From assembly GCA_020536535.1 (NCBI GenBank), contig JAHLWZ010000158.1:1-64000 (forward strand): DNA of 64,000 bases. The letters run 5' to 3'. Shown here piece by piece: positions 6,185-25,322 of this stretch (positions are counted from its first letter, which is position 1; each line of letters begins with the position of its first letter). Below the pieces are notes generated by a model that had not been told where the DNA came from, did not search any database, and saw only the letters and a list, made by a program, of their open reading frames with translations. Origin of the DNA: Pelomyxa schiedti (taxonomy: Eukaryota > Protista > Evosea). A program made the position numbers and the translations under genes.

Positions 6185-6815
6185 AGCAACACTTGTCAAA
6201 ACGAATAGACTTTTTTTTTTTGTAAAGAATGTTGTGTAAGGGAGAAAGCGGAGGGAAGCATAAACGGGGTATCTACTTATGTGATGGCGGACTTGCATCA
6301 GAAGGAAATCTTTGATATAATTAATTATAAAAAAACCAGTAAAAAAAACAACCTTCAATGTAGTGATGGCATGGTTGTGGTCGTGAAAAAAACCAAACCT
6401 TGGTGTTGTAAGGGCTGCGAAAGCAGAAGTAGCCGGCTTGGTGTTATAATAGACATAAAGTACATGTTTTGTTGGTTTTATACATATGGGGCGCAGGACA
6501 ACGTCGTCATCTTGAAGAGTCTCTTATGCAGCAATGCCTGGTGTGCACCAGGTTTCCCGTCAACAATGCTGGCCGTAATCAAAAAACAAAAAAAACAAGA
6601 TTCAAAAACACAACCCCATTCCAGTTCAAGCAGCCCAACACGCTTTTCCACAGCCCACTTCGCTCATGGTACCCCTTGCTTTGTCATATATTTTTTCAAA
6701 AAAAACCAACGCTTAAAAGGAGCCCCATTCAAAAACACGACGCGGTTCCGATTTGTGTTTAAAAATAAAACACCATTCGCGTTCAAATTTTTCTACGTTC
6801 AATCGCATTCCGGTG
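6185..6815. mobile_element. Second, inverted copy of the long-TIR element (truncated by the gap)
   Basis: 6185-6726 is the reverse complement of 3125-3671. Ends CGCATTCCGGTG|TA at 6815-6817. Confidence 0.8.
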
Positions 6816-6847
6816 TACATCAAACCCCAGTTTGTACAAAAGATTTG

Positions 6848-8110
6848 ATGAGCCTGGTAAAGATACCGTTGCGTATAACTAACGTATCCCAGCGGACTCA
6901 TGGCCAACTTTTGGCGTTGGTGATGGCATCCCACACTCGGTGTGGTGCAGGGAGCCCCGCGCGCCACTTTGTGTCTCTCCCTCCGCTCGTGACCGCACCA
7001 TTGTGGGACTGGTGCCTCCACGACACCGAAGTTGTCTTGTGTGTCGTTGCGTCACTTTCTCATCCCAAAGCATTGTGCTATTACACCTTTGGCGTCTCAT
7101 GTTCCCTGTTGAGTGTCACGAGGGAAATAAACGTGCACAACTGCTGCTGGGCCTGGAAGGGTACCATCCCCTGGTTGCATCCCATGACTCCCAGCCTGGC
7201 CATTGCGTCTGATGCTACCCTCTGGAGCCGTGAATACTCGCTGTTCAACGTTGTGACTCAGCAGAAGCGGGATTTGCTGAAGTCAACTTCCCGAAGCATG
7301 GCTAACATGTCGACTCAGAGTGGGAATGAAAAGTGGTGGATCCACTGTGATTCAATGAAAACACTGGAAATCGCTGACATGACTGCTGAGGGTGATAGTT
7401 CTGGCAGATTGATATCCTGTAGTGTTGTGACTGGGCTTGAGGCTAATTATGGAAGCGAGCATTTTACCGAGGTCGTGTGCAATAGAATCTCATTAAGCAG
7501 GAATATTCCTGATGAAGCTATGCTTGCGATGTCTGAAGTTTCACAGAGGTTCGATTTCCTCGTTGTGATTGATGTCCAGCAGAGCTACATCACAAAAAAG
7601 CTTGCCGTGTTGAGCTTCACAAAGTTACCTCCAAGCCAAGGCCCCATCATTGGATCGTGTGTTTTCATGAAGAAGTCCACTGGCCACCGTGCTTTGTTTG
7701 TCACTGACAAGACCAGGTTACCTCAGGGAGGTGTGATTCTGTATGAAGTTGCAGAGGGTGTTGGCACCATGAAATCAATTTCCAGTGGGGTTGTGAGAAT
7801 GTCACAGCTGAGCTCCTTTCTGCTTGGAATCTTAAAGAGTGAGGGTCATCTTGAAGTGTGGGACTGCAACAGCACATCAGCTCCCCTGAGAGTGATTAAC
7901 ACAGAGGAAAGGCTGGGTGTATTACCCGAAGCAACATCTGCACTCCCATTTTTGGTGGGGCCAAATTTCATCATTCGGAAACTACCCACAAGCCGCAAGG
8001 ATTGTCTCGAGGTGATGGCAGCAGCTTCCACTGACAGTACAATAGTCACTGTGGCCACAATCTCACTTACCTCAGAATTCACAACATTTACTGCCACCAG
8101 TTTGCTGTGA
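6848..8110 (+). CDS. Lineage-specific intronless protein of the 'QLLALxMASHxRCGAxSP' family, with a beta-rich C-terminus
   Basis: ATG at 6848 (MSLVKIP...). Shares QLxALxMASHxRCGAxSPARHFxSLP...LWDWCLHDTEVV and (H/V)(L/E)xxWDCN with 11816-13087. The upstream part of ORF 6281 is transposon sequence. Confidence 0.75.
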   Translation: MSLVKIPLRITNVSQRTHGQLLALVMASHTRCGAGSPARHFVSLPPLVTAPLWDWCLHDTEVVLCVVASLSHPKALCYYTFGVSCSLLSVTREINVHNCCWAWKGTIPWLHPMTPSLAIASDATLWSREYSLFNVVTQQKRDLLKSTSRSMANMSTQSGNEKWWIHCDSMKTLEIADMTAEGDSSGRLISCSVVTGLEANYGSEHFTEVVCNRISLSRNIPDEAMLAMSEVSQRFDFLVVIDVQQSYITKKLAVLSFTKLPPSQGPIIGSCVFMKKSTGHRALFVTDKTRLPQGGVILYEVAEGVGTMKSISSGVVRMSQLSSFLLGILKSEGHLEVWDCNSTSAPLRVINTEERLGVLPEATSALPFLVGPNFIIRKLPTSRKDCLEVMAAASTDSTIVTVATISLTSEFTTFTATSLL

Positions 8111-8160
8111 GAAAAGAAAAAACTGGAAAAGAAACAGTTAGGAAATACCGAACAGCCAGC

Positions 8161-10036
8161 ATGGCATCATCGTCGACGTCGACATCGACATCGGCACCAG
8201 GGGTGGTGGCGTGGCGCACGTGCGTGAGGAGGCAGATAGGCACGCTGCTGTGTTGCGCCGCGTCGATCCCCCGCCTCACGGGAGGCGCCCCCGCGGCGCC
8301 CTCGCTGCCGCACCCCCCGCCCCGCTCGCCGTCGGCACCGCTGCCCCTGGTCCCGTCGTTGGCCAACGGGAGCAGCCCCGGCTCCTCGTTGCACCGCGAG
8401 GAGGAGCGAGAGCGGGAGGGGCAGGGGCAGGGGCGAGGGGTGGTGAGGGAGGGGCTGCCGATTGGGGTTGTGCGTGGGGTGCTGGAATGGGCTTACCCCG
8501 CGGTATGACTCACTTGTAGTTATTGTTGCGTTGTGATGATGATTGTTTGTGTGTTGTTTATGGAGTCAGCTTGTTATTGCAATATCCAAAACAATTAATT
8601 AATTTGTTGAGGGGCAGCCACACAGGGTGGGATGGGCAGGGAGTGCTCCTGTTGGTTCTGTCACCACTCCTTCCAAGTGGAGTGAAGTTTTGTCGAGGGC
8701 ACTGGGTGATGCTTCTTCCAAGCCAACTTTCGAGGAAGCTGTCATGGCAACCGGAATGAAGAACCCAATGAAGGTTGGTACTTATTGTTGTGGAAGTTTG
8801 TTTGACAACAAGAACAGGTAATTGAGATGTGCCGGAATATTGTTGATGGAATTCCAGAGAGTGACAGGCATGATAGGGAGGCGTATTGTGCCGTTGCATT
8901 ATACACACTTGATTTGGGGAGAGGTGAGAGCAACCCAAATGCGCTTCTGAACAGGGCAATTTCCGAAGACAATGCCGACCTACTTGCGAAATGGCGCGGT
9001 GTAATTTCTCTTCTCGTTACAGCATTGACTGAAATGCAACCGTGCTTGGTGTTAACCATGTACATTGTTGCCCGCATCAATGTCACGGAAGAGGACAAGG
9101 CGTTGTTTTGGACAACATTCTCGTCAGCAACAACTGGTTTGGGCTGTTTTTTCGGCGTTTATTGAGAAATACCTAGCTAACGACGAAACAGATGTTACAT
9201 TTCTGAAATCCAACTCATTTGAAAACGACCCCAGGGAATCCATTCTCTCTCTTTCAGGTGTTGCCTTTGACTTGACGGAGTTCTCCTCTTCAGGGAAGAA
9301 AGGTTTTCTCTCTTTTTGTCTCTGGCAATAATTTTCACGCAGAACAACCTGACACTGCTGGTTGCTGCCGGCAAACGCAACAGAATTCTTGATTGTTCCC
9401 GGAAGGAAGTACTCCATCATCAGCAGGAGCACGTCATGCAACGCGCTTACACCCATTCTGAACCTGTTTGACACGCACTCCAATTCGCCCCTGACCAAGA
9501 TCCTCAATTCCTCCGGAACCTTCAAACGGACCCGCAAAGAAGTAATCAGTATCAACACCACTGAAACTGGGTGGCTTGTATGTGAGCCGGCAACACCCAA
9601 ATGGGACCCCAGTGCACCCAACGAGGTGAACGTGGAATTCCGGCCCCCAATACACCCCTATTCCCTTGGATTCTACGTTGTCACATTCAAGCTTCCCTGT
9701 GACTACCCGTTCAAGGCACCCATTGTCAAATTCAAAACTCCGATTCTACACCCCAACCTCAACAACCAATTCGGCCTTTGCTGCTGTGACTGCATGCTGC
9801 CGGTTCTAGGAAACCAGTGGATGCCAAACATCACCATCCAGTCAGTGATGAATTCCATATGCAGCTGGATGCAGACAGAAAGTTCATGGACTGAGAATGC
9901 ATGTGGTGGGAGACCAGATATCAGGCAGTTGTACCTCAACAACAAGGCTGAGTTTATGAGACAGGCTGAGAACCATGTAAGACTTCATGCCATACACCCT
10001 CAACTGGAGACTTCGGCTCTGTACTTCAACACATAA
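8161..10036 (+). CDS. Multi-exon fusion: family N-terminal module + degenerate ADP-ribosyltransferase-like domain + ubiquitin-conjugating E2 (UBC) domain
   Basis: UBC motifs: PYSLGFYVVTFKLPCDYPFKAPIVKFKTPILHPN...GLCCCDC...QWMPNITIQSVM. ART-like motifs: AVALYT...LLNRAI...KWRGVISLLVTAL...WTTFSSAT...FDLTEFS...EFLIVPG. GT-AG introns (e.g. 9138-9191) join these in frame. Confidence 0.7.
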
Positions 10037-10166
10037 AAAAAACCACTGGTGCTTACCGTGCTCCAAAAAAAGTTTCCATTTGAAGGGGTTGTCTCCTTTT
10101 TTTCCTTCCACATGTGTGGTCTGTTGTTGACAAAAAGTGTACAAGGCGTTGGGGATTGTGGTGGAA

Positions 10167-11262
10167 TTATTTGGCACTTGTTTCTACTTGCTCTCCTGAC
10201 GTAATAGCTGTAGTCAACTGCACAAAGGCAGCCTGCACGTTGTCTCCTGTCAGGGCGGAGCACTCTCTGTGATGCTGAATGAGGTGTTGTTTGTATAATT
10301 AACAACAGAGACACACATAAATGGAACATGCATTTCGCTGGCCAGTTGCCTTCCAGTGGAAGTTGGTATTTGGCGATGAGCTTCTTCGTCGCACTGTTTT
10401 TATTTTGAAATGAGGGTGAGAACCACAGTGACATGCGATATATTAATTACTACTTATGCTATTGTTAATTCAAACCATGTTGCCCACTAAGACCACAGAA
10501 GCTTCTGGCGAATTCTCTTTGAGCCTTGCATGCCACTTTCTGATATTGTCAAAAGAGCATTGGTTCCTGATGTCACTTGATGATGAAGTGAGTAAAATTG
10601 CAACACTCTCACCATAGGACTATTTCATACTAAACGAGGAGTGCTCCACTCTTGCTCCTAAAATCTAGGAAGTATTTTAGGATGGGAAAGTGATGAATCA
10701 ATGGCCATTATTATTACATGAAGCTGGAAGACACATGCGTCTTTGGTGGAGGGTGAAGGTGTTAGAGAGATTTCAATCAGGAATGATAATACGTTTCTCC
10801 GCCATCCCACTATGATTGAGAAGTGATTAGTATTTAAATCGGAAATAAAAAAGACAAATCAGTAGGTAACTACAATTTGAATATGCACAGGATTGTTATC
10901 GTCACCGAATGTATGCCTCACAAAATTCACGCCGAGAGTCGCATTATAAGTGCTTGAAAATGTATCTCCCTGAGAGGTAAATTATCACGGCCTCATTAAT
11001 CAAGATACGAAAAAAGGTCTCATCTCAGTACACACAGAAAGTCTTTCTGCCAGAGCCGCTTTCATGGGTAAGTAAAAAGACAACTCAATTTACAAAAGTA
11101 CATTTGCCACAGCGCGGATCTCCCAACATTGCAACTTGCAACAGTGGTGGCGCTGTGCCAAAAGGTAAAAAAGAACGAGGCAAGAAAAAAGTAACTTGGA
11201 GCGTGAGTGGCAGTCGTTTCTGTGCTCGCTGTCTCTCCTCCCGATCCAATAGCACCCCCCAT
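10167..11262 (-). CDS. Atypical Rab-like small GTPase (about 10 exons; not visible in the ORF track)
   Basis: Spliced translation: MGGAIGS...LQVAMLGDPRCGKSALAERLSGDTFSSTYNATLGVNFVRHTF...IQIWDGGET...SYFRSKSGALLVYDIRNQCSFDNIRKW...VVLVGNMCDEEAHRQIPTSTGRQLASEMHVPFIECSALTGDNVQAAFVQL...SAK*. Confidence 0.8.
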
Positions 11263-11419
11263 TTTTGATTTGATGGCTGTTGCGCAGTTCCATTGAAAAG
11301 CTGTTTGGCTTTCTTTTCTTGGCTTCTTCCAAGAAAAATAACCCCCAGACCGTTGGTGGCTGTGATGGAACAAAGTTTAACTGACTAAGGCACAAGGGAT
11401 AATGTGCAAGTCACCGTGA

Positions 11420-11520
11420 ACTGGTGGGAGACACAAAGTGGCGTGCCAAGGTCCTCGCACCCATTGTTGGATGCCATCAACAGGGCGAGAGTCTGGTAAC
11501 GTACACGCGAAAACGTGCTG
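11420..11520 (-). pseudogene. Degenerate fragment of the 'MASHxRCGA' family N-terminus
   Basis: RVRYQTLALLMASNNGC followed by frameshifted ARHFVS. DNA resembles 12960-13030. Confidence 0.5.
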
Positions 11521-11815
11521 GTGTAGATAAACAGTTTTCGTAGCCCTTAATTTTTAAACTGTTCCCCGTCGACGATGCACAACACCAGTGAAAACAGCAC
11601 TGCAACTAGTAGTAGTTGCAACACACAGTGGGTGGAGAGTGGTCACGTGGACAAGATGGACGAAGGAAAATGAGATTTATTGTGACGAGGCTGAGGCTCG
11701 TGTGTATCTCCGCAAACCTTGAAAAACTTCTATGTGGAGATTCTTGTGTTTTGGTTTGAGCATTTTGTGTTACCTTCATTTACATTAAAAAATAAAACGA
11801 AAGCAACCACCTTGT

Positions 11816-13087
11816 TTATCTGTGAGTTGTCGAAGTTGCTATGGAGGAGGTTACAGTGAAAGTGTATACCTCTGTGGAAAAATCAATTTTGCAGATTGAA
11901 TTGGCACCAGTTGGGCCTGTAACCTCCACAGATTTGCCAATTTTGTAAAATATGCACCCTGAACATGCAATGACAAGATACAGTGACTCATTTGGCCAAA
12001 TGGGCTGAAGAACCCTTAGTGGTTTCATCATCATTGCCCCAGATGAAACGACGTTATTGCAGTCCCAGATTTCAACTGTTTTGTCAACCTTAAAGATACA
12101 GTACGAGAAAGTGCCAAGCCGTGACAGGCACTTCACTTCTGTGGCTAGAAGCTGGCAGGTGCCTGTACTTTCTGCAACTTCCAGCACTGTGCTGTAGGTT
12201 TGGCACTCCAGGTATTCATAAAGGAAAACACGCTCACCATTGGTTCTGTTCAGGACAAGGGTGGTGAGAAACGTTGGCAGCATGCTTCGTGTTACTTCAC
12301 ATGCTGTCTCGCTCAGCACAGTAAGTGTACCTGTGTTGAGGGTCTCTTTGACATCAATCACATTGAAGAAGAGGCGAAAACGGTCTTGACGTGATGTAGA
12401 TGAAGCCAGAACAATCAGTGCTTCATCAGGATCAAAGTTGCTCAATGTGATTGCCTGTAAAACCTTGTCAGGCGTCTTCAGAATGTTGACATCGGCGGTG
12501 GTACACCGCCTTTGAGGCAGTTCCTGGTCTGGGTCTGGAACCTTCGGTACCAGTAAGTCGACAACAGTCAGTGCGCAGTAATCAGGATTGCGCTCGTCGT
12601 CATAGTGCAGCCACCACTTGTGATTCGAGCAATTGTAGTGCTCCGAACCGCTGTTCTCATCAGTGAACAGCAGCCGGGGCTTCTGAGACCCCAAGTGCTT
12701 TAGCGATACACCTTTGGTGTGCCCGGCAGTGTGCGAAATGACCACGAAGGCATCCGGGTCCACCACATCCACGTCGATCGGCAAAACGGTCCATCTAGCA
12801 ACCAGCTCGAGGCCTCTTGTAATGCTCATCAAAGCAGCGGAGACTCCAATTGTGAAGTAGGAGCAGGGTGAGCATGGGAACCCGAGCTGGGCCGAGACAT
12901 CAAACACGACCTCGGTGTCGTGGAGGCACCAGTCCCACAATTGTGAAGTGGTGAGTGGGAGAGACGCGAAGTGGCGTGCCGGGCTCGACGCACCGCATCG
13001 ATTGTGGGATGCCATCATCAATGCCATAAGTTGTTCCCGTGCGTTGAGTTGCATCCCCATCTCCAAAAATGTGTTTGCTGACATCAC
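11816..13087 (-). CDS. Lineage-specific intronless protein, paralog of 6848-8110
   Basis: 423-aa ORF with NAREQLMALMMASHNRCGASSPARHFASLP...LWDWCLHDTEVV, NHKWW, PDEAL, VIDV, EVAE and VEIWDCN blocks shared with the paralog. Confidence 0.8.
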   Translation of the reverse strand: MMSANTFLEMGMQLNAREQLMALMMASHNRCGASSPARHFASLPLTTSQLWDWCLHDTEVVFDVSAQLGFPCSPCSYFTIGVSAALMSITRGLELVARWTVLPIDVDVVDPDAFVVISHTAGHTKGVSLKHLGSQKPRLLFTDENSGSEHYNCSNHKWWLHYDDERNPDYCALTVVDLLVPKVPDPDQELPQRRCTTADVNILKTPDKVLQAITLSNFDPDEALIVLASSTSRQDRFRLFFNVIDVKETLNTGTLTVLSETACEVTRSMLPTFLTTLVLNRTNGERVFLYEYLECQTYSTVLEVAESTGTCQLLATEVKCLSRLGTFSYCIFKVDKTVEIWDCNNVVSSGAMMMKPLRVLQPIWPNESLYLVIACSGCIFYKIGKSVEVTGPTGANSICKIDFSTEVYTFTVTSSIATSTTHR

Positions 13088-13212
13088 TGGATGATTTGAA
13101 TGAGGCGGGGACTATGCAAAGTGTGCGTCGCAAAAGAATTTTGATTGACAACCGCGAGATTTCCGATACTCCCTTTTCCAGTGATTTGAACGGTTACAGA
13201 GAACCTCTGCTG

Positions 13213-15253
13213 ATGAACTGTAAATGCGTAGTCATTGGGGACAGCGTAGGGAGCAAGACAGATTTATTGGTTAGCTATGTGGATGGGGGACTACGTACTG
13301 AATGCCCGACTACCGTTTTTGACAACACGACCAAGACAGTGGCAGTTGATGGCCGGTGTATTGATCTCACTCTATGGGATACATCTGGGCTGGAGGACGC
13401 CCCCAACGTCGTTTGCTTCCTTTCCTCTTCCTTTCTTTTTTCTTTCTATTTCCTTCTTTTTCCAAGACTTTTTGCTTGCACAGAGAGTACTTGCGTACGC
13501 AAGGAACACCAGTGTTTTCATTGTTGTCTTCTCAGTGGGGCACAGACAGTCCTTTGAGAGTGTGAGCAGAGTATTTCACCCTGAAATTACGAAGCACTCC
13601 CCTGAAACTCCCTACATCCTTGTTGGCACAAGAACTGAGTTGGGAGCACGGAGATTAATAACTTATGAGCAAGGTGTTGCCAAAGCCAAAGAGATAAATG
13701 CAGCTAAATACATGGAGTGCTCAGCAGTGACACATGAGGGCGTGAGGGAGGTGTTTGAGGAAGCTGCAAGGTGTGCCAAGGCTTATGAGCAGGAATGCAG
13801 AATCAAACAGTTGGAAGAAGAGGTGAGTGCACTGAAGAAAGAGCTAACTGCATCTTTAAATGGTTGAAATACTCATGTTGCCACCTAACAAATAATCAAA
13901 AAAAAAAGAAGTGAGCACTATCACAGAACGGAACCAAACACTAAACGCAGAGGTTGAGCACTGTATGCTAGACAATGCCTTACTTTAGGTTCTTAATTAA
14001 GATGAAAATAGTGAAAGAGGGAAACATGAACCTTGAGGCCAGATTTTCAGCACTCACTGATGAAATCCAGAAACAACAGGTTTCTCCAAATCAAATTGAC
14101 ACTTAAACTTAATTAAGTGCCCCCTAATACAGAAACAAGTTGAACAAATGATTTCATTGATTCCGGCTGATGTTTCTGACTTCACCTTGGAGAAGCTCCT
14201 CGGAACTGGTGCCAGTGCCGCTGCATTCAAAGTAAGGTTCTCCAACAGCCCTTATCCAGGAAGCACCACAACCACAAGCAAGTCCACCATGGTAATGAAA
14301 GTCCTGTTCAACTGGGAGAGCACTCCAAGGCATACAAGGCTCAGGCAGAAGTACATGGCAGAGTGTGTGATACTATCTTCCATCCCTCCCCATCCAAATA
14401 TTATTCATCCCCTTGGTGCACTGGTCATTCCCAGGTGATTGACCCTCTTCAATCTTCTCAATTTTTTTGACAGGTTGTACTTTGAAGGTTGTCTGATGAA
14501 TTTATTGAGCAGATTCCAGTCACCCAACTGGCTTTTCGTGAAATGGCACTGAACAAGTCACTTGCACTGATCATGCCCTTTGGGGGTATCCCTCTGTCCG
14601 CCTTCCTCCAATCCCTTCTTCACTCTCCCTCTTCTCGACCCCCATGGGATGCAACTCTGAACCTATTCTTACAAGCAGTTAAGGCAGTGCACCACCTTGA
14701 AAACAGCAAGGTCGTTCACAGGTTGCCATTTCTCTCTCACAAGAAACACTCAAAAAAAAAAAGGGACATCAAAGAGGACAATCTGTTGGTGGACCCAGAG
14801 ACACACAAACTGTCTCTGATTGACTTTGGGGAGGCCACACAATGCCGCAAAGCTGACCTTGAAGTGACTGTTGCTGCAGACATGCAACTCTGGGGGAATA
14901 CAGGGACGATGCCCCCAGAGCTGAGTTCACTGCTGAGGACACTCAGGGCCACTGGACCAACACCGTTCTCGTATTCCAAGTGCGATTCCTTTGCAGTTGC
15001 GGTCACGCTCTGGGATGCACTCCTGCCACCAGATAACAAGTTCATTGGGAGCACACTCAACAACAACATGGCCGCATTCACACCCGTCAAGCTATCAAGC
15101 ATGCTCCCGGACCCCCTTGAGTTCTTCCCTCCCTGCCAAGGCACACACAGCCGCCTAGCAACCATGAAAGAGGTCATGATCGCGATGATGGCTCCTGAGA
15201 AACACGCCAGGATGTCCTGCTCGGAGGCCATTCAGTGTCTCTCTTCGTACTGA
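13213..15253 (+). CDS. Rho/Rac-like GTPase - coiled coil - PINK1-like Ser/Thr kinase fusion
   Basis: Rho motifs: KCVVIGDSVGSKT, PTTVFDN, LTLWDTSGLED, KYMECSA. Introns 13863-13908, 13963-14011 and 14080-14132 keep frame into the kinase (LGTGASA, MVMKVLFNW, PPHPNII, HRDIKEDN after removing 14722-14763, IDFG, GNTGTMPPE, YSKCD). Confidence 0.75.
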
Positions 15254-15309
15254 CGTCAGCGCCTTCGCAGAAAACATAATAATAATAAATTTGGCTGAGC
15301 AAACCCACA

Positions 15310-16407
15310 ATGAAGCGACGCAGACGTGAAACCACAGTGAAATCAACATCGATACCTGCCTATACACCTTGTGATGACGTCATCCACAGCACGACACCCT
15401 CCTCGATGTCGTTGCCGCCGTCCTCCTCTCTGGACCAAATGGTTCCTCCCTCAGTCATGGAACTCATTGTTGCTTTCTTATTTTGCCCTCCTTTCCCGAC
15501 TTCATCAACAACAACAGCAACAACAACTTCCTCCCACAAACTTGGCAGGACCAACTGTGTGATCAACTTTGCACTGTGTTCGAGAGCATGCCTTGCTGCG
15601 TGCGATAGGGTCAGCATGACGATGCGTGTGAGGTCGTTCGTGAGGCCATACCTCAGGCTGGTGATGATGACTGGTGACAGGAATGATGACACAGTGTCTG
15701 AAGAGCTTGTGGAGAGGGACAGTGATGATGAGAGGGAGCTGGAGGAAGCCGCTCGCGGGATACGGAAGGCACTGAGGATAAAGAGCTGGGTAAAGGCGGT
15801 GCACAATTCGGTGCTGGTGTCCATGAGGAACAAAGTGCCTCGACACAGTGCTCACTTCATCTCATGTGACGTGAAGGAGTGTGCAAACTGCCAACAGAAC
15901 TGCACTGAAGTTGCACAACAGGGAGAAGCGTGGTTCTTCCCCACAACAGCAGCAACAGCAACAACAAAAGCAGTGGTGAGAAGGGACCAGAGGGTATATG
16001 TGCATATCCTTGGGGAGATGATAATCCCGATGCAAAATGAGGATGACGACGACCGTGAGGAAGAAGAAAACGAACCACATGCCACCGTGTGGTACTGCAT
16101 TGCTGACACTGGGAATGTTCCACAACCACCACCATTCTGGGAGACCAGACTGGAAATGCAAGATCAGATTCAGGTGCTGAGGCAAGAAAGGGATTCAGGT
16201 GCTGAGGCAAGCGCCTTTGCACCCTGGGTCAAAGTGTATGACACATGGAGTGCATACCCGAAACACCTTCTTGATAAACATGCAGAGGAAGTGAGCCAAC
16301 TGGCAGGTGTGGCAGCGTTGTGTGCCCTTGCTGGATTACCAGCAGATCAGGGCAGTAATTTGCTTAAAACTTTGGCAGACGCTGCTGATTGTGCCTGTCT
16401 TCTTTGA
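15310..16407 (+). CDS. Hypothetical intronless protein with an F-box-like N-terminal motif
   Basis: 365-aa ORF. LDQMVPPSVMELIVAFL...VINFALCSRACL resembles an F-box with a low-complexity insert. Confidence 0.55.
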   Translation: MKRRRRETTVKSTSIPAYTPCDDVIHSTTPSSMSLPPSSSLDQMVPPSVMELIVAFLFCPPFPTSSTTTATTTSSHKLGRTNCVINFALCSRACLAACDRVSMTMRVRSFVRPYLRLVMMTGDRNDDTVSEELVERDSDDERELEEAARGIRKALRIKSWVKAVHNSVLVSMRNKVPRHSAHFISCDVKECANCQQNCTEVAQQGEAWFFPTTAATATTKAVVRRDQRVYVHILGEMIIPMQNEDDDDREEEENEPHATVWYCIADTGNVPQPPPFWETRLEMQDQIQVLRQERDSGAEASAFAPWVKVYDTWSAYPKHLLDKHAEEVSQLAGVAALCALAGLPADQGSNLLKTLADAADCACLL

Positions 16408-16692
16408 AGTCTACCATTTGACCATGCTCAAACATATGTTGTGCCACAACACCTCATTATTATTCTTATTTCGTGAACAAAAACGAATGGTGGCAGGAAC
16501 CCTGGTCCAGGCCCAACGCCCGCGATATCAACTGCATTTGATGATGCGTCACGATTGATTGCAGATGCTCAGCAGAGGTACTTCGATACAAAAAAAAAGT
16601 GAGTGAATTCTAGAAAAAAGGTGAATTGATTCTTTTCTACCTTGTACACAAAAGTTCTTTTAGGCAACAAAAACAAAAAGCCACAAGTGGGA

Positions 16693-19103
16693 TCAGTTGT
16701 TTGCTTTGGGTTCATCAGTGGAGACGGGTTCCTTTTGCTCTCCAGGCTTTGCTTCAATTGTGATGGGATTGGGAGTTGATTCTGGTTGCGCTGTTGTTGT
16801 TACTACTTCCTGTTGGGTAGCTGTTGGTGTAGTCGTTTCTATTGTACTTGGCGATTCCGTGTGAACAGTGGCATCATTGATTGTTGGGGGCTCTGTGTGA
16901 GAGGATGTCCCAGTAATAGAAGAGGATGAGGCTGCAACGCTTGGTTGGGTTGTTGGTGTGGTAGAAGTGGTAGTAGTGGTGGTTGTTGCTGTGGTCGAGG
17001 CTTCGGCTGCTGGGGTGGTTGCGGTTGCTGTGGGTGTGGGGGTGGGGGTTGTGATGGGCGCAGAAAGCGCGGGTGCGGCGGTGGCGGTGGAAGTCGGCGC
17101 GGATGAGGCTGGTGCGGCAGCGTGGTGTATTGTCTCTTGAACAAAGGTGCGGATTTGTTGGATGAAAGTGGGCATGAAGCGCCTATCATGTGTGAAGAAG
17201 TGGTCACCGTCTTGGTGGACAAACAGGTGCCCGTTCTGTGAGGAAATTAGTGGAAAGCGTGGTGTGCCTTGTTGTTGCTGGAAACCTTAGAAACTTGCAT
17301 CCACAAATCTTGTGAGTCGTGGTGGTCTTTGCCTCCATTTAGGAAAAGAAGAGGACCAGAATACTTCGGTAGTTGGATAGCGGGATTAATCGTTTTGAGA
17401 ATCTACGTGTGATGAGGGGACGGATCAAAAAGGGAAAAAGTGGAAAAACCCGAATTTGATCTTCAGCACAATCGAAATAGAGGCCACACCGCAAATTGCA
17501 TTCATCAATGAGATCCTCAGATATGTTGGTCAGATCCATAGAAGCAACGAGTTGTTGAACTACGGTCTAAGCGATGATCAACGAATTTCCCAGAAGGAGA
17601 TACCCACCTTTCGAGGTGCAAGTTTTGTGACACCTTCAAGAACAACTAATCCTAACCGTGCAGCCAGACTTGAACCTGGACCAACATTTTGCCCTGAAAA
17701 ATACATATGACTATCATGGTAAAAAGAAACGAGGAATACATACCAGCACTACAGATAACAGCACCAGCAAATAAATGCGGATGTTCACCCACAATGTGCA
17801 TTCCCAAATAGCCACCCAAACTATCACCAACATATATGACTACTTGTCCATCAAGGTTCTGTTCTACAAATTGAGTAACAGTGTCCACTGCCGAGGCAAG
17901 GGATAGAGGCTGAAATAGAAACAAAATGAGAAAGTCACGGATCAAGGATAGAAGGCAAGACCTCATTCATTCGGCTCCCATGTCCAGGTAAGTCAATAGC
18001 ATAACAACGGAACTCAGTTGATAAAGCACGTATCTGAGGGCCCCACATGGAACGGCAGCCACCTCCACCATGAACAAACAACAAAGCAGGAATGGCTGTA
18101 AATTGGAAGTGAGAAATCGCAACGTGAGTGTATTCCCGCATACCGGGATCATTTGAGGGGCCAAAGAAGTCATAGAACTTTGAGTGATCGAGGGAGCTTT
18201 GTTCCTTGAAGCACTTCTTACAGACACGAACCACATTATTGGCACCTTTCTTTCCCTCTGGAAGAATCACGTTCTGGAAGCATTGCGCACATACAACTTT
18301 GTGACATCCACATATATGCCTGTGAGTTCATTTCAGACAGATACAAAAATATATTCTTAAATAGGTTTTGCCAGGGGGGAAAAAAAAAACAATAAAATGT
18401 TGGAACATTTAACTAGAAGTGGATGAGAGCAAAAGCCAAAAACATGATACGTAGTAACATACTTCCAATAGAGTAAACCAAACGCCTTGTTGCACAACTG
18501 GCACGCACTCACTGACGATTTGTCAACAGCCGCTGTACCAGCAGAAGACGTCGACGCCGACGAAGAAGCAGAAGCGGAAGTGGAAGTGGAAGTGGAAGTA
18601 GCAGTAGAAGAAGCTGAAGGCGAAGAAGCTGAGGTAGAAGGTGAGGATGAAGCTGAAGACGAAGCAGAAGCAGGAGAATCAGCGGGAGCCGAAGAAGCAG
18701 AGCTCGAGGCAGTCGAAGCTACTGTACTTTCAAGAGGTGAGGTCGCGACCGCGCCACTTGCAGCAGACTCGGTCGCCGCCGCAGAAGCAGAAGCATAAGC
18801 ATAAGCAGAAGCAGAAGCATTATCAGAATCAGTAACGTGGGCAGAGGCCTCGGGCTCGATCACGATCACGGTCGCGGTGCCATGGGGTGCCTCCTCCTTC
18901 GCCCCCGACCCCTCTCCCTCCCCTTTCTTGTCGCCCTCCACCACAGGCACCGGCGCTGGCGACGGCATGGGATCTGCGCTGGGCGCTGCCGCGGTCGTGG
19001 TGGTGGCGCTGGGGGAGGGCTGCGGCTCCGCGTGGTCGCCTGGGGCTGCTGCGTCGCTCGACGCGGTTGTTGTCGCGCGCTCTGTCTGCTGGTCGGTGGC
19101 CAT
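16693..19103 (-). CDS. FYVE-like zinc finger + alpha/beta-hydrolase with S/T/A/P-rich termini
   Basis: CQLCNKAFGLLYWKHICGCHKVVCAQC...VRVCKKCF; LLFVHGGG, YAIDLPGHG, GDSLGG nucleophile elbow and a late GDHFF His. Confidence 0.8.
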
Positions 19104-19255
19104 CGCCCAATTGATTGTTTTTTTTTTTTTGCGGGGGGGGTGGAATTTCCAGATCTTCGTCTCTTCTTCTCCGAGTCGAAAAAAACCGTGTGCAACAGAC
19201 GCCTTTTGGTCTCGGTCAGTGAGGGAAGACCCACAGTGGCACTACCTCCCCCGTA

Positions 19256-21346
19256 ATGGACGAACGAAGCAGCGCGTGCGCAGCCTCCGAGGGCCTCCCA
19301 AATAGCCACCACAGTGGTGACACCCGAAACGCGGTGGTGCACTCGAATTATGGGGCTGCTGATGCTGCTGCTTCTTCTCCTCCTCCTCCGCCTCTTTCTC
19401 CTGCCCAAAGCCCCCCTGCACTGAGCACAAACGAAATGAAACTCTACAGGAGCCAAGGGACTGAGGACCCTGAGCACGAGTTTGACAAATATCCCGTGGG
19501 CAATAACCTTCCTGGGTCACTTGACCAACCCTTGCATCAAAGAAGTACCTACCATCTTTTTTCCAATTCCTCAAATTAAAGTGGCGTTTCACTGACTGAC
19601 TGACCTACCCAACAAATCACATAACAATTAAACAAACAAACTCATTTTTTAACTGTGTGGTGGGGAAACCCTCACAGGTTGGTTTGACAAATTCAAGGAC
19701 ATGTTGTTTTGGAGTTCACCTACAGCCTCACTGCTCCCTGTGATTGATAACACAGTCAGAGAAGGGGAACCCCTTCTATCTGACACAACTGTGCGCCATG
19801 CACCTCGCCGCATAATTTTGTATCGCTTTTTGGCGGCCTGCATTTGTATGGCACTCACGATAGGCATGTCTAAAATCCAAAATAAAAAAAAAATACAAAA
19901 TACTGGACTGCCTCGTTATGTGTCTTAACATGTGAAATAGCACCTTGGGTAGTTCTTGCATTCATCATACAGGACGATATCCAGGACAACAACGAAAATC
20001 CATACTTTGTGTATGCACTGTTTTCCCACTTTGGCGATAAAAACAACCACCGCGCTGACCACTGTTTCTACAGAACCTGGTTTGTGAGGTCAATGCTATC
20101 ATGGATGACAATAGTTTGGGCGATCTGGTATTTCATAAGAGGGAAGAAGATGCTACGATTAAAACACCAGTTTACCTGGAAGAGATACCTGCTTTCTGCA
20201 TTTCTTATGTCCTTTATCATGTTTTTCAGCGCGCTTATGTGGTATGCCAGCCTGTCAGGAATTAGTGTTTCGGGTTCAACTGCTGGTAGATTTGGTTGTC
20301 AAGTCAGCACAACTAAGTTTCTTATTTAGTGTCTGCGTGCACACCAGTCTTTGTATATATATTTGTATGGACACAATACCTCCAGATTCTTTCTTATTCT
20401 TCATAGGCAGTACCCATACTGAAAGAGAGAATTGTGGCTACGAAACTGCTAGCTACTGTCCTATGTGTTGCTGGTGCCTTGATTGTAGCTCTTACTGGTA
20501 GGTAACTTATTTTTTTTTTTGGATGAATGACTTCCCAAAGCTGTGTCCACTAACGGAAGTGGAAGTTCCGGTGAGTACGTGCAAGACACTCCACTTGGCT
20601 ATATTGAAGTGTTTATCAACACTATACTGTGGTCTCTATTTCTGGTATAATCTCGCCACGCAACTCTATATTTGATGGATATTATGAAGGTTTTGTACCA
20701 GCGATTTGGTGTGGATCATATATTCGAAACTGAACCAACGATAGAGAGAATGATTTTTTATCCTTTCTTATTTGTTGGTGTCTGTGGCCTTATAATGTTT
20801 GGTCTTATGTGGGTCGGTATACCGGTAAAACTCTCCCCCAACCATGTTTGATCCAACAATCGATAGATTCTTTATCTTATCAAAGGGTCTGATACTTTTG
20901 CCTGGCCTTCCTGGAATACGGTGCGGGATTTAATTGGAAGCGCCATTCTATCAGTTTTTGGGGAGATGTACACTTATGTACTTCTCTGTAAACCTCCCTG
21001 ATCACTGTCTAGTACCACTCTCGTTGGCATAGCGTGCTCCTCGGCACTATTCATTTCTATTGGTTCGATATTGGCGTATGTGTTTTATCTTATGTAGACC
21101 ACGCCATACACACCCTCTTCCTAGATTACCCATATCTTCCATATCCGAAGTATACGCATACCACTATCATTTTCCAGGTAAAGCAATCCACACCCGCAAT
21201 TCGCCGAGTTCCTCATTCTTTTCCTAGCATGGTCTTATATTGGTATTGTTCTAGTTGTTGTTGGAACAGGGATTCTGTACCTCGACCAAATCAAAGTAAT
21301 ATGGCTATTCTACAAAAACAGAGCCTACCAACCTGTATGCAATTGA
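19256..21346 (+). CDS. DMT/EamA-type transporter (SLC35F-like)
   Basis: Multi-exon with many hydrophobic helices; ENPYF, WYASLSGISVSGSTA and ILKERIVATKLLATVLCVAG motifs. One probable GC-AG intron at 19864-19940. Confidence 0.7.
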
Positions 21347-21479
21347 TTGTGGCCAAACCCCACAACAAGTCCCAATAGAAAACAAAAATTCAGTACCCCA
21401 AACAACCCGAAAACAAAGATGATCTCAGATTGGAAAAACCCAAGTTGTCCCTTGTTGTTTCATTTCTGCGAAGAAGAAA

Positions 21480-23462
21480 ATGGGCCGTTCGTCTTGGCTT
21501 ATTGGGTTTTGTTCGTGCACAACGTGCAGGTGCTGCGTAGGTGAGATGTCAATTTTGACATTAATTGATTCCCCTGCTAACACTTCTTGTTGTTTCCACG
21601 CGTTGTTCGTTTTTTTTTATTTTTTCCAAATTTTAATTTCTTGTTGCCTTGGGGTGATTATGCAGGGTTCTCCTTTTCACTTTGTGGGAAAAGGATTCCC
21701 GTCAATGTTTCGGCACTTATTTATGTAATTACATTTTTATCTGTGAGCTCTCTTGCTTGGGCTCTGAGTTCCTATGCGCCAACGTCTGCACTCAGCAACT
21801 TCTCCCCAGGTTTCTGTTGTTAGTGCCAAAACTTTTTTTTTTTTTTAACATTCCACCTCAAGAGTTCTCCAAGTGTGCATCAGATGACAGGTCGTGCTTG
21901 CGAACTTTACTTGTTGATAGGATGTTGTTTTCATTAGCAGTATGGTTATATTGCTTTACATTGCATCTTCAAAATATGGGCATAATTTTTTTCAACAGCT
22001 GTACCATGCCATTCACGCAATTCTTCTTGTAAGAGTTCGAACCACCGCAGATTGGAGGAATCAAATTCAAATTGGATGGTGGTTTGTGAAGATATTTATA
22101 CTAGTCTTGTGTATTATCATTTCTCTGTTCATACCAAATGAATTTTTCATGGGCTATGGTCAGTAGTGCAAGTACTTTTTTTTTTCGTTCACGAAGAGAA
22201 GATTGGATTGCCATGCTTGGTGCTTCACTTTTTATTCTCCTACAAATTGTAATTCTTATCGATTCTGCTTGTAGCTGGGGAGGTTTTTTTCCCCTCCAGG
22301 TTTTAGTTCTAATCCCCCACAGCCCAATGGGTCAAAAATATGGATGAAACTGACAATAATCCTTATCGCAGCCACTACTGCAATAAGTGGTTGGTATACT
22401 CACATTGTTCTTCTTTTCTAACAAAATAAGGAAAACGCTACTACTAATTTTTACCTTTGGGCTGTATACCTTTTCCCTTGTTTTGACTGTGCTACTTTAT
22501 GTAAGATTTTTTTTCTATTTCCACCATCCTCCAATGGTTTCAGGTATATTTTACCAATGATTATATTCCTGGAGAGTGCAGTGGTTCACCGTATAATATT
22601 ACTTTCATAACGTTGAACATTGTATTTTCCATTGTCGTTGCCGCCATATCTGTTGCTCCAAAGGTTCCTTTCTTTCCCTAGCATACGTTTTTGACTCAAG
22701 AAGGTGAGAGAGAAAAAGCCTGACTCGGGTTTAATGCAGTCGTCAGTTGTCACTGCCTATACAACTTTCCTTGTTCTAAGTTCAATTTCCAGGTGATGTA
22801 AGTATTAGAACCTAACATGTATCTAACGTCCAGTGTAGTGAGCCGTATTCATGGATGGAGGGTTGCAATAAGTGGACGACAGACTCTAATGGTAGTTCCA
22901 AGGCAGCAACAGTCACTTTAATATTGGTTTGCCAAAAAAACACTTCCCTTTCTGCACTCTTATTCTTTCAGGGAGCTATTCTCACCATTTTGACTGTTGT
23001 GTACACAACAACAAGTACATCCTATGGGTTGACCTCTTGGGAAAGAATTGCGGCGTACTCCGTAATCAATACAAGTGACCACGAGGAACCGGAAGACTCC
23101 TTGGCTATTACCACGAACGTAGCGTATAATTATTGCATTTTCCACATTGTGTTCGCGCTGGTATTTTCTTAGCGTCACTACAGTTCTTTTTATAACAATT
23201 TTGCAGGGGGCAATGTATGTTGGTCAACTCCTCACCAACTGGCAAGTGCTAACCAAAGACGATTCCTCGTGGGTGCCCTTTACTTTCTACGTGACCACTT
23301 ACTTATTTGTTCAGGATGATGGTAGATAGTGGGGTTGCGGCTGTCTGGATCAAAATGACTTCTGGTTGGTTAGTTATTTGTCTTTACATATGGACTCTGG
23401 TTTCTCCTGTTTTGTTCCCTGACAAGGACTTCACTGCACTTTTCTGTTGTCTTCAACTGTAA
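21480..23462 (+). CDS. SERINC: Serine incorporator (Serinc/TMS1) family membrane protein
   Basis: Cys-rich N-terminus; RNQIQIGWWFVK, GASLFILLQIVILID, SGLMQSSVV, YNYCIFHIVFAL, MYVGQLLTNW, VWIKMTSGW...LYIWTLVSPVLFPDKDF. Confidence 0.9.
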
Positions 23463-23613
23463 ATTGGATAAACAAAACCCTTTCACAAAAAAATATTTCT
23501 TGTGAAACCGGATTTGAAAAAAATTAACACATACAGCTTACACAGGAGGAAGACTACTTCATCTGTTGGGATGTTAGAAGTCTCGTATGAATGGAGAAGG
23601 GGAAAACCAAGAT

Positions 23614-25035
23614 TTAAGATCCATGTTGGTTCTCAAGTACACTACGGATGATGATGTCGGTAACAGCCTCAAACACGGCAGTCACGCTCTTGGTGTCGGT
23701 GGCACATGTAATATGTGCATACAAAGGTTTCTTCTGGTTTTCCACCAGAGAGAAGAATTTATCCCGGATGAAGTTAGCAGCAGTCTCCCAGTTGGGTCCA
23801 CCTTTTTGCATTAGTTAGAACAAGGTAACATAGAATCAAGGTAACAGCTTGGAATCAACCATTGTAATCGGGGAATGTTGCTTCAAGGGGGCTCTTCAGA
23901 ATTTTTTTTTGGAATAGGTCACTCTTGTTAAGGAACAAGAGGAATGGGGTCGATCCGAACCACTTATTGTTGGTAGTCTCCTTGAATAGTCTCAAGGATT
24001 CCGTCATTCTATTGGTGACACCATCTTCGTATCTGATAAATTGGTAAACAAAGCAAAAAAAAAGCAAGGCCTATTACAGTTTCAGGTCATATTCACTGAG
24101 AGCAATAACAAAAACTACTGCAGTTACATCATCAAAACAATTCATCCATTTTTTCCTTTCACTTCGTTGGCCTCCAACATCAACAACTCTTTGTCAAATG
24201 GTGAACACCTCACAAGGCTTGAAGGAGTTGATTACCTAAACCGCGTGTTTCGGTATACAAAATCTATTTCATTTACACCACTAGTTTTCACTCTGCTAGC
24301 TAGCACATCATCTACAGATGGCACATAAGCAGGTTGAGAAATTCTGTCAATGTTTTCAAAAAAGCTAGACTGTGTCACAGAAGAGAAGACAAACTAATAA
24401 CAATAACAGAAGCAACATACTATGCAGCACAATCAAATAACTGGAATTCGTTCCTCCTTTCATATGCTGCTCTGATGCCTGGGTCCGTCCAAAGAGTCTT
24501 TTTCCCGTTGTATTTAATAAGACTAGCACAAGAAAGTGTTTATTGGGATGAATTATACCTTGATTGCCGCAGCAACATCAGGAGTATATGGCTCATGAAG
24601 AATTTCATATTCTGGCCTCTTCACAATCTCTGCTTGTGCCTGGAAAAAGTTGGAGAAGCACACGAGTCGTATGATATACCGTGGCGGCAATAGGAACCCC
24701 AAAATCGCCAGCAGCTCGAACAAGGTTGCGCATACTCCCCAAGGCATTGTTGAGAATCGCCAGCTTATATGCATTACGTTCTTCAGTAGTGAAACCGTCC
24801 AAATGAATAAGCTTCAATTGTTTGGCTATTGTGCTTTTTCCAGATTCCCCAGCCCCTTCATGCAAGTCATAAAAAAAAAAACGAGAAGACAACAATGAAA
24901 CAAACAAAACACTCGATCCCTACCCAACAACAAGAGCTTGATTGTTTGGTTCCTGTCGTTTCTAGTCTTTTCATCGTGGAGTGCCTTGTCAATTTCCAGA
25001 GTTCGTTTTGCTTCCACACTTTGACCACAACCCAT
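23614..25035 (-). CDS. Heterotrimeric G-protein alpha subunit
   Basis: MGCGQS (myristoyl/palmitoyl-type N-terminus), [44 protein letters not shown]; canonical introns. Confidence 0.95.
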
Positions 25036-25322
25036 CTACGTGTGTCGTTTTCTCGTTTGTGTCGTCTTTACCAACCCCGCACGTGCTGCCCCCTGCCGCT
25101 TTTTCTCGTATTTTTTTTGTTTTGTGTACACACAGGTTTATTTTTCTCTTTTCCACATGCAGGGAAGTTAATGCTGTCAGTTTATGGAAATCAGACTAAA
25201 ACATCCAGATCGCAGAATGATAGAACGTTAGATTAACCAAAAGTTTCTTTCGAGTTTTTGTTTCCCAAACTGGGTTAATAGGTTGGCGATAGAGTCACTG
25301 ATGTTGGTTTTGGTTGAGGGAT

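What the first reader, a model, noticed from the sequence alone, without database searches (positions are those of the whole stretch)
8161..10036. ADP-ribosyltransferase-like domain fused to an E2 enzyme with a Cys-cluster active site
Seen: a domain following the R-S-E ART layout (LYT...LNRA...W..FSSAT...FS....E.LIVPG..Y.I) splices in frame to a UBC domain. HPN is retained, and the catalytic region reads GLCCCDCML, with four Cys instead of one. The ART Arg is replaced (MYIV) and position -2 to the catalytic Glu is Lys. Known: ADP-ribosylation/ubiquitin crosstalk exists (Legionella SidE, DTX-PARP). Inference: an NAD- or ADP-ribose-responsive E2, or a divergent ART acting on ubiquitin.
Basis: partly seen in the sequence, partly recalled or inferred. 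Interest (0 to 1): 0.7.

Follow-up and report, generated by a model that had tools for sequence, protein, structure and literature searches.

The report
Pseudo-ART fused to cysteine-rich E2 enzyme
An amoeba gene with two related copies is predicted to splice into one protein that joins a likely inactive ADP-ribosyltransferase domain to a ubiquitin-conjugating (E2) domain whose active site carries cysteines where E2s normally carry acidic residues, so it likely works as a partner-binding ubiquitin carrier that would be gated by metal or oxidation.

Summary
Window 8161-10036 is a five-exon GT-AG gene model of 526 aa. It matches the Pelomyxa schiedti record Pelo_1808 and has two paralogs with the same architecture. 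The middle domain is an R-S-E (ARTC) ADP-ribosyltransferase: 29 of 30 other hits carry PF01129, and the paralog's model matches solved ARTCs at Z 15.6. All three copies lack the NAD-binding Arg-Gly, have a shortened ARTT loop and Lys at E-2, yet the domain is at least as conserved as the E2. It is most likely a pseudoenzyme binding module. The E2 keeps helix 1, HPN and the catalytic Cys442. The positions of its two flanking Asp residues hold Cys (C444, C483), seen in none of about 118 control E2s. That predicts weak lysine transfer and thiol or metal control. NAD or ADP-ribose sensing is possible but has no direct support. Nothing is shown biochemically and the splicing is not cDNA-confirmed.

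The parts
8161..8502 (+). Exon 1 (aa 1-114): ATG, a two-block motif shared with both paralogs (aa 19-40 and about 98-113) and a Pro/Gly/Arg-rich insert found only in this copy
8503..8617 (+). Intron 1, 115 nt, GT-AG, phase 0
   Evidence: the paralog aligns across the junction without a gap
8618..8773 (+). Exon 2 (aa 115-166): linker and start of the ART helical lobe
8774..8817 (+). Intron 2, 44 nt, GT-AG
   Evidence: same junction in database model P0001
8818..9136 (+). Exon 3 (aa 167-272): ART helical lobe, beta-1 and the S-S-A-T motif
9064..9069 (+). I249-V250 at the beta-1 Arg-Gly site (relatives: R 26 of 30, G 27 of 30; paralogs I-S and M-T)
9118..9135 (+). FSSATT, the retained serine motif of R-S-E ARTs
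9137..9191 (+). Intron 3, 55 nt, GT-AG, phase 1 (the database model uses an acceptor 15 nt upstream, adding 5 aa that the paralog lacks)
9192..9302 (+). Exon 4 (aa 273-310): ART core with shortened ARTT loop; K308 at E-2 (9296-9298)
9303..9383 (+). Intron 4, 81 nt, GT-AG, phase 1; splits the codon of the ART catalytic Glu310
   Evidence: same junction in P0001
9384..10036 (+). Exon 5 (aa 310-526): last ART strands, linker, whole UBC domain, stop codon
8720..9439 (+). ART-like (ARTC, R-S-E class) domain, aa 149-328, predicted catalytically inactive
9515..9991 (+). UBC (E2) domain, aa 354-512, PF00179 E 3.5e-18
9749..9757 (+). HPN motif (aa 432-434)
9779..9793 (+). Cys cluster: C442 (catalytic column), C443, C444 (C+2, Asp in 113 of 118 controls), C446
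9902..9904 (+). C483 in the gateway column (Asp 103, Ser 16, Cys 0 of 119 controls); Cys also in P0002, Glu in P0003

Best explanation
This gene is predicted to encode a Pelomyxa E2 with an N-terminal extension, in which a likely inactive R-S-E ADP-ribosyltransferase domain would act as a built-in partner- or substrate-binding module and the E2 would be charged with ubiquitin at Cys442 under likely thiol (metal or disulfide) control. Shown by sequence and model: ART fold, loss of Arg-Gly and ARTT-loop features in 3 of 3 copies, a UBC with its catalytic Cys and helix-1 basic residues, and Cys at the two positions where control E2s have Asp. Inferred steps: (1) E1 loads ubiquitin on C442. (2) With Asp replaced at C+2 and at the gateway, discharge to lysine is poor, so transfer goes mainly to a thiol (a HECT/RBR E3 or a substrate Cys) or needs a dedicated activator. 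(3) C442, C444, C446 and C483 lie around the active site and can bind Zn or form disulfides that mask C442, giving a metal or oxygen switch in an anaerobe. (4) The pseudo-ART recruits the target by protein contact rather than by NAD chemistry.
For: ART homology: 33 phmmer hits, 29 of the 30 non-fusion hits pass the PF01129 cut-off; Atlas score 0.94 to PF01129 clusters; the P0002 model matches 6drh_B at Z 15.6 (rmsd 2.7, 159 aligned) and ART2.2 at Z 13.8 (rmsd 3.2, 177 aligned). Catalytic loss in 3 of 3: Arg site I/I/M, Gly site V/S/T, E-2 K/K/K, loop 6/4/4 residues against 7 in 28 of 30 and 8 in 2 of 30. PMC7827354 (passages) assigns NAD binding to the Arg and target choice to the loop. Constraint despite this: the ART domain is 119 of 178 identical to P0002 and 95 of 175 to P0003, against 103 of 157 and 61 of 153 for the UBC and 10 of 25 and 3 of 24 for the linker. 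E2: C442 falls in a column that is Cys in 119 of 119 controls, 7 residues after HPN as in 116 of 119; helix-1 R358 is kept (110 of 119); F419 and P457 are kept. C+2 is Cys in 3 of 3 against Asp in 113 of 118 and Cys in 0. Gateway column Cys/Cys/Glu against Asp 103, Ser 16. PMC4822130 (passages) reports that mutating the gateway Asp of Ube2D severely reduces transfer to lysine, that Ube2L3 is reactive only to cysteine, and that E2 active sites are redox-modified.
Against: No activity, ligand or partner is shown. The UBC part of the only model is low-confidence (pLDDT under 50 over residues 284-337 and 343-412), so the cysteine geometry is inferred from alignment columns. P0003 has Ile for the HPN Asn, lacks C446 and has Glu in the gateway column, with a Cys only in a nearby insertion, so a four-Cys site is not shared by all copies. 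A Gly present in 119 of 119 controls is lost in 3 of 3, which fits a degenerate E2 as well. The ART catalytic Glu, the S-S-x-T motif and N211 are kept in 3 of 3, which a purely protein-binding module need not keep. The control E2s came from viral contigs and were picked by a YPF..HPN pattern, so they understate E2 diversity. The length of the post-Cys loop resembles human UBE2T, so the length itself is not new.
Confidence: 0.45

Rival explanations
1. The ART domain cannot transfer ADP-ribose but still binds NAD+, ADP-ribose or ADP-ribosylated proteins. The fused E2 then ubiquitylates the marked protein or the ADP-ribose itself without an E3, in the manner of DELTEX RING-DTC modules.
For: Glu310, S-S-x-T and N211 are kept in 3 of 3, and a new invariant Lys at E-2 (3 of 3 against 0 of 30) puts a positive charge in the cleft. 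The same species encodes other ART proteins that keep Arg and E-x-E, which could write the marks (P0005, P0008). DTC domains bind ADP-ribose and promote ubiquitylation (PMC7442474, PMC10810221; search listing and abstract start only).
Against: The beta-1 Arg and the following Gly are lost in 3 of 3, and the Arg is described as important for NAD binding (PMC7827354, passages). A second basic position (Arg in 16 of 30 relatives) reads D/G/gap. No RING domain was found.
Confidence: 0.2
2. Both domains are non-catalytic. The UBC is a pseudo-E2 whose cysteines form a permanent structural metal site, and the protein is a scaffold or decoy that binds E1, E3s or ubiquitin.
For: Three conserved E2 active-site features are altered together (Gly before the Cys, Asp at C+2, gateway Asp). 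P0003 has also lost the HPN Asn, and its UBC (61 of 153 identical) has drifted further than its ART (95 of 175). C-x-C-x-C plus a distal Cys is a common metal-ligand pattern (own knowledge).
Against: The catalytic-column Cys is kept in 3 of 3 at the canonical 7-residue spacing; HPN is intact in 2 of 3; helix-1 R-x-x-K/R-E/D and the loop-4 and loop-7 residues of the E1/E3 surface are kept. Known pseudo-E2s usually lose the Cys (own knowledge).
Confidence: 0.22
3. The ART domain is an active but divergent transferase that ADP-ribosylates ubiquitin, the E2-bound ubiquitin or an acidic acceptor, with Lys308 taking over a catalytic or acceptor-binding role.
For: The catalytic Glu is kept (3 of 3, as in 30 of 30 relatives) and the Lys at E-2 is invariant. 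The fold is intact, with pLDDT 72-98 over residues 101-280 of the P0002 model. Some ARTs lack the canonical triad (PMC7827354, passages).
Against: Arg, Gly, the ARTT aromatic residue and the E-2 acid are all lost, the loop is 1-3 residues shorter, and the three domains sit on a very long stem (3.06 changes per column), as expected after loss of the ancestral activity.
Confidence: 0.08
4. It is a decaying duplicate or a gene-prediction artefact with no function.
For: Found in one species only. The database model of this locus is wrong at its 5' end, so prediction here is error-prone.
Against: Three diverged copies (39-61% identical) keep open frames and the same architecture, and the domains are more conserved than the linker. 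The ART end and the UBC share one exon.
Confidence: 0.05

Closest known systems
Fungal PARP-Ubc (clade 6A PARP, fPARP2; PMC2964712, PMC13720257, bioRxiv 10.64898/2026.07.25.740670; passages read)
   Same: An ART domain followed by a C-terminal E2 domain that keeps its active-site cysteine, in one eukaryotic protein; function of the pairing unresolved.
   Different: The fungal ART is H-Y-E/PARP class, the E2 is UBE2Q-type and the proteins average about 1150 aa with RWD and Zn domains. Here the ART is R-S-E class and degenerate, the E2 is closest to UBE2D/E/T-type sequences, and the protein is 480-526 aa. The fusions are independent.
Eukaryotic R-S-E (ARTC) ADP-ribosyltransferases, PF01129; solved relatives rat ART2.2 (1gxy) and the toxin chain of 6drh
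   Same: Same fold (Z 13.8 and 15.6), helical lobe with the YT..N motif, serine motif and catalytic Glu.
   Different: Beta-1 Arg-Gly lost, ARTT loop shortened, Lys at E-2; fused to an E2; none of the 30 other hits has a UBC domain.
Ubc4/UBE2D, UBE2E and UBE2T E2 enzymes
   Same: PF00179, helix 1, YPF loop, HPN, catalytic Cys at 7-residue spacing, W-x-P loop. UBE2T shares the TPI-x-HPN stretch and a long Cys-to-Trp loop with L-P-x-x-G.
   Different: About 33% identity at best to the control set; Cys at C+2 and at the gateway; extra Cys; N-terminal pseudo-ART.
UBE2L3 (cysteine-only E2) and redox-regulated E2s such as yeast Pex4p
   Same: A working analogy: altered acidic residues around the catalytic Cys predict thiol-directed transfer; intramolecular disulfide control is reported for Pex4p (PMC6505396, listing and abstract start only).
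   Different: No sequence evidence of orthology; that UBE2L3 lacks these two Asp residues is recalled, not checked in a call.
DELTEX RING-DTC ligases and Legionella SidE
   Same: Couple ADP-ribose chemistry or binding to ubiquitin.
   Different: No RING, DTC or PDE domain found here; SidE has an active R-S-E ART with E-x-E, which this protein lacks.

Membership tests
R-S-E (ARTC) ADP-ribosyltransferases | ART fold with helical lobe and beta core | tested here: met
   Model of paralog P0002: Z 15.6, rmsd 2.7, 159 aligned to 6drh_B; the top 17 rows are all ARTC-type folds. The alignment behind the model held ART relatives, so this is not fully independent. Atlas 0.94.
R-S-E (ARTC) ADP-ribosyltransferases | Beta-1 Arg (NAD binding) | tested here: not met
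   I/I/M in the three copies; R in 26 of 30 relatives
R-S-E (ARTC) ADP-ribosyltransferases | Serine motif on beta-2 | tested here: met
   F-S-S-A-T in 3 of 3; S in 29 of 30 relatives
R-S-E (ARTC) ADP-ribosyltransferases | Catalytic Glu on beta-5 | tested here: met
   E in 3 of 3 and 30 of 30; the codon spans predicted intron 4
R-S-E (ARTC) ADP-ribosyltransferases | ARTT loop x-x-aromatic-x-x-E/Q-x-E | tested here: not met
   K at E-2 in 3 of 3 (E 25, D 3, Y 1, N 1 of 30); loop 6/4/4 residues against 7-8
R-S-E (ARTC) ADP-ribosyltransferases | PF01129 profile score above cut-off | tested here: not met
   No PF01129 hit for P0001 or P0002 at E up to 10 or P0003 at E up to 0.01; 29 of 30 relatives pass
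R-S-E (ARTC) ADP-ribosyltransferases | NAD+ binding and ADP-ribose transfer | not testable with these tools
   Needs biochemistry
E2 ubiquitin-conjugating enzymes (PF00179) | Profile match above cut-off | tested here: met
   66 bits against cut-off 27, E 3.5e-18; P0002 64.4 and P0003 45.2 bits
E2 ubiquitin-conjugating enzymes (PF00179) | Catalytic Cys 7 residues after HPN | tested here: met
   C442, C396, C401 with spacer 7 in 3 of 3; column Cys in 119 of 119 controls
E2 ubiquitin-conjugating enzymes (PF00179) | HPN motif | tested here: met
   HPN in the window protein and P0002; HPI in P0003
E2 ubiquitin-conjugating enzymes (PF00179) | Asp at C+2 and Asp/Ser gateway residue (lysine-reactive E2s) | tested here: not met
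   Cys at C+2 in 3 of 3 (Asp 113 of 118); gateway C/C/E (Asp 103, Ser 16 of 119)
E2 ubiquitin-conjugating enzymes (PF00179) | UBC fold in a confident model | tested here: inconclusive
   UBC region of the P0002 model mostly under pLDDT 50-60; only weak Foldseek rows to E2 chains
E2 ubiquitin-conjugating enzymes (PF00179) | E1-dependent thioester with ubiquitin | not testable with these tools
   Needs biochemistry
Fungal PARP-Ubc (clade 6A) | PARP (H-Y-E class) catalytic domain | tested here: not met
   No PARP Pfam hit; sequence relatives are PF01129; PARP structures score Z 5.2 or less against 15.6 for ARTC
Fungal PARP-Ubc (clade 6A) | C-terminal UBC with active Cys | tested here: met
Fungal PARP-Ubc (clade 6A) | UBE2Q-type E2, N-terminal RWD and Zn domains, about 1150 aa | tested here: not met
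   The 60 best PDB sequence hits shown are UBE2D/E/T, Ubc1/4/13 types; 480-526 aa; no Pfam hit in the N-terminal part
UBE2T subfamily | TPI-x-HPN and long Cys-to-Trp loop with L-P-x-x-G | tested here: inconclusive
   P0003's six best PDB hits are UBE2T (E about 3e-10 to 5e-10), but the window protein and P0002 rank UBE2D/E types first; TP also occurs in 12 of 119 controls; no E2 tree was built
DELTEX RING-DTC ligases | RING plus DTC domain | tested here: not met
   No such Pfam hit

The most novel reading that the evidence does not exclude
An E3-independent E2 that reads ADP-ribose marks (laid by the amoeba's own R-S-E transferases) through a dead ART pocket rewired with a lysine, and whose catalytic cysteine is held in a Cys4 metal or redox cage (C442, C444, C446, C483) built from the two positions that are normally acidic. 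It would be an oxygen- or metal-gated coupler of ADP-ribosylation to ubiquitylation in an anaerobic amoeba, evolved independently of fungal PARP-Ubc and DELTEX.
Probability: 0.12. Interest if true: 0.82.

Novelty: new variant of a known kind. Interest (0 to 1): 0.5.

Why it matters
It is a second, independent joining of an ART domain to an E2, this time from the R-S-E class, which suggests repeated selection for physically linking the two systems. The E2 active site is a natural experiment: both acidic residues that support lysine transfer are replaced by cysteine in two copies. A roughly 170-residue recombinant domain would let one test directly whether an E2 can be gated by a metal or disulfide site that includes its own catalytic cysteine. 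The limits are real: one species, three genes, no activity shown, and the ART is probably dead.

Tried and rejected
RNA support: two single-cell RNA contig sets (X3, X4; one sample) have zero depth over 8206-10081, although they cover 21 and 19 of 30 bins of 6500-26000 and show GT-AG joints of 40-61 nt in neighbouring genes. Contigs show presence, not absence, so expression and splicing stay open. X1 has one contig over 7672-10543 with no differences, but it may be the source sample. No whole genome was held. Relatives outside this species: none with both domains in three searches of the 90% clusters (each limited by length range and word seeds, and one search scored only the top 7996 candidates) or among the 33 representative hits; none in viral or metagenome contigs with single-protein patterns, which find close relatives only. 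Pfam does not detect the ART domain in the fusions. The profile built from the 30 relatives scores the three fusions at 95, 83 and 58 bits, but it is circular for the window protein, so I do not rest on it. The database model P0001 (945 aa), which joins the upstream ORF to this gene, was rejected: it reads exon 1 in another frame, and the paralogs match my frame. Acceptors at 8625 and 9342 were rejected on frame. A register with C443 as catalytic Cys was considered and judged less likely: P0002 and P0003 have Ser there and 8-residue spacing occurs in 2 of 119 controls. An F-box-like reading of the N-terminal motif (a resemblance recalled from memory) found no support: no Pfam hit, Atlas best 0.80, no other match in the window below E 0.96. 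A UBE2L3 origin, suggested by the L-P-V run and one weak Foldseek row, was not supported by PDB sequence ranks. No deep-alignment model of the UBC domain was obtained, so cysteine geometry is open. No complex prediction was run. Literature: no paper with Pelomyxa plus ADP-ribosyltransferase (0 papers); none with E2, zinc, CxC and active-site cysteine together (0 papers); searches listed nothing describing an R-S-E ART-E2 fusion (judged from listings, plus passages of PMC11354881). The library lacks most subscription papers and no supplements were read, so domain-architecture surveys could mention it.

Full report
Gene. The window reads as a eukaryotic genome with short introns. A search with the last exon returned a 100% identical record named Pelo_1808 of Pelomyxa schiedti and a paralog Pelo_4194 (P0001, P0002). 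A third, Pelo_13260 (P0003), came from the representative search. Joining exons 8161-8502, 8618-8773, 8818-9136, 9192-9302 and 9384-10036 gives 526 codons without an internal stop; all four introns are GT-AG, 44-115 nt. RNA-confirmed introns of neighbouring genes are 40-61 nt among the joints listed and up to 82 nt, and the genome paper reports 98.41% GT-AG introns (PMC8887013, passages). P0002 aligns to this model at 55% identity across every junction. The database model P0001 agrees from exon 2 on, except for five extra residues at intron 3. It wrongly prefixes the upstream ORF (6848-8110) and reads exon 1 in another frame. Exon 5 holds the ART's last strands, the linker and the whole UBC in one frame, so the fusion does not rest on splicing alone. 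The junctions themselves are not cDNA-confirmed.

ART domain (aa 149-328). Pfam does not see it in the three fusions. phmmer against 1.84 billion representatives gave 33 hits: the three fusions and 30 others, best E 7.2e-11. Of those 30, 29 pass the PF01129 cut-off and none has a UBC domain. The Atlas placed the region with PF01129 clusters at 0.94. An AlphaFold2 model of P0002, built on a 24-row alignment that included 20 ART relatives, has block pLDDT 72-98 over residues 101-280. It matches 6drh_B at Z 15.6 (rmsd 2.7, 159 aligned), ART2.2 at 13.8 and HopU1 at 13.0, while PARP-type domains score 5.2 or less. Foldseek on the whole 480-residue model had no hit at E 0.001 or better, but its top 11 rows were all ARTC structures. 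I modelled the paralog, not the window protein; the two are 119 of 178 identical in this domain.

The domain is degenerate in the same way in all three copies. The beta-1 Arg (26 of 30 relatives) is I, I, M; the next Gly (27 of 30) is V, S, T. The stretch before the catalytic Glu is 6, 4 and 4 residues instead of 7 (28 of 30) or 8 (2 of 30). E-2 is Lys in 3 of 3, against E 25, D 3, Y 1, N 1. The catalytic Glu, S-S-x-T, Y195-T196 and N211 are kept. PMC7827354 (passages) gives the Arg a role in NAD binding and the ARTT loop a role in target choice. The three domains form one clade (100/100) on a stem of 3.06 changes per column; their position among the relatives is unresolved. Yet they are conserved among themselves: 119 of 178 identical to P0002 and 95 of 175 to P0003, against 103 of 157 and 61 of 153 for the UBC and 10 of 25 and 3 of 24 for the linker. 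Loss of catalytic residues followed by renewed constraint is the pattern expected of a pseudoenzyme with a new binding job (inference).

E2 domain (aa 354-512). PF00179 E 3.5e-18; best PDB sequence hits are Ubc4/UBE2D-type, E 6.6e-17. As a control I took 119 E2 segments from the 119 viral-contig loci that matched a YPF..HPN pattern; this set is biased towards canonical E2s and is redundant (80 remain below 75% identity). C442 lies in the column that is Cys in 119 of 119, seven residues after HPN as in 116 of 119, and is Cys in all three copies. [quoted passage not shown] Departures: no control has a second Cys within six residues of the catalytic Cys (0 of 118); C+2 is Asp in 113 of 118 controls but Cys in 3 of 3 copies; the gateway column is Asp 103 and Ser 16 of 119 but Cys in the window protein (C483) and P0002, Glu in P0003; 2 of 119 controls have any Cys in that loop; a Gly invariant in controls is lost in 3 of 3. 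The Cys-to-Trp distance is 13, 13 and 10 against 8 in 108 of 118. Human UBE2T has a similar long loop and is P0003's best PDB hit, so the loop may be inherited from a UBE2T-like E2 with cysteines substituted into it; the other two copies rank UBE2D/E types first, so the subfamily is unsettled.

Mechanism. The review PMC4822130 (passages) states that loss of the gateway Asp in Ube2D severely reduces transfer to lysine, that transthiolation needs less, that Ube2L3 reacts only with cysteine, and that E2 active sites are modified by oxidation. From this I infer an E2 that E1 can charge at C442, that discharges poorly to lysine, and whose ring of cysteines can bind Zn or form disulfides and so switch the catalytic thiol. 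That C+2 and the gateway residue both flank the catalytic Cys in space is established E2 structure (own knowledge), not measured here: the UBC part of the model is low-confidence. The pseudo-ART would bring in the target. I put this at 0.45; a doubly dead scaffold at 0.22; an NAD or ADP-ribose reader at 0.20; an active divergent ART at 0.08; a non-functional relic at 0.05.

Comparison and novelty. ART-E2 fusions are known: fungal clade 6A PARP-Ubc (PMC2964712, passages; bioRxiv 10.64898/2026.07.25.740670, passages, 322 of 534 genomes; PMC13720257, passages). The scan met one such gene in another genome and had no look-alike of this protein. That family uses a PARP-class ART and a UBE2Q-type E2, so this gene fails membership and is an independent fusion. 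It fails the active R-S-E test on two of four motif features and passes the E2 test except for the two acidic residues. DELTEX and SidE are functional analogies only (listings, passages). Searches that found no description of this family. The family is confined to three genes of one species in every search made.

Verdict. Real, correctly observed, a new variant of a known kind. Interest 0.5: two unusual features in one protein and a clean bench test, set against narrow distribution and no functional data.

Noticed in passing
window 6848-8110 (+) and 11816-13111 (-): Two intronless ORFs of about 420 aa, 31% identical to each other, both starting with a shared 'LMASH.RCGA.SPARHF.SLP' motif and with no Pfam hit. 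The database record P0001 wrongly fuses the first to the ART-E2 gene.
   Followed up: partly
window 10113-10960 (-): A spliced, RNA-supported gene (joints with CT..AC ends in X3 and X4) whose partial translation looks like a Rab-type small GTPase (by eye, exon bounds approximate). It converges on the ART-E2 gene and RNA cover reaches 77 nt from its stop codon.
   Followed up: partly
window 39289-42408 (-) and 38539-39288 (-): A 1039-aa open frame that by eye has an adenylation domain, a carrier-protein-like GVDSI motif and a terminal reductase-like GGTGLLG motif, like a carboxylic acid reductase or NRPS-like enzyme. Not scanned.
   Followed up: no
window 14486-15253 (+): Protein kinase-like exon (RDIKEDN, DFG) with RNA-confirmed introns.
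   Followed up: no
P0004-P0033: A family of mostly intact eukaryote-like R-S-E ARTs fused to varied domains: Listeria-Bacteroides repeats with what look like membrane segments, SH3, armadillo repeats, LRR, tandem ARTs. Three are named Pelomyxa; many of those looked up are unnamed records.
   Followed up: partly
window 8215-8280 and 8455-8499 (+): A two-block N-terminal motif conserved in all three paralogs, ending L/V-P-x-x-(V/F)-(V/I)-R-x-(V/A)-(L/I)-(E/D)-x-A-(Y/F)-P; no family assigned.
   Followed up: partly
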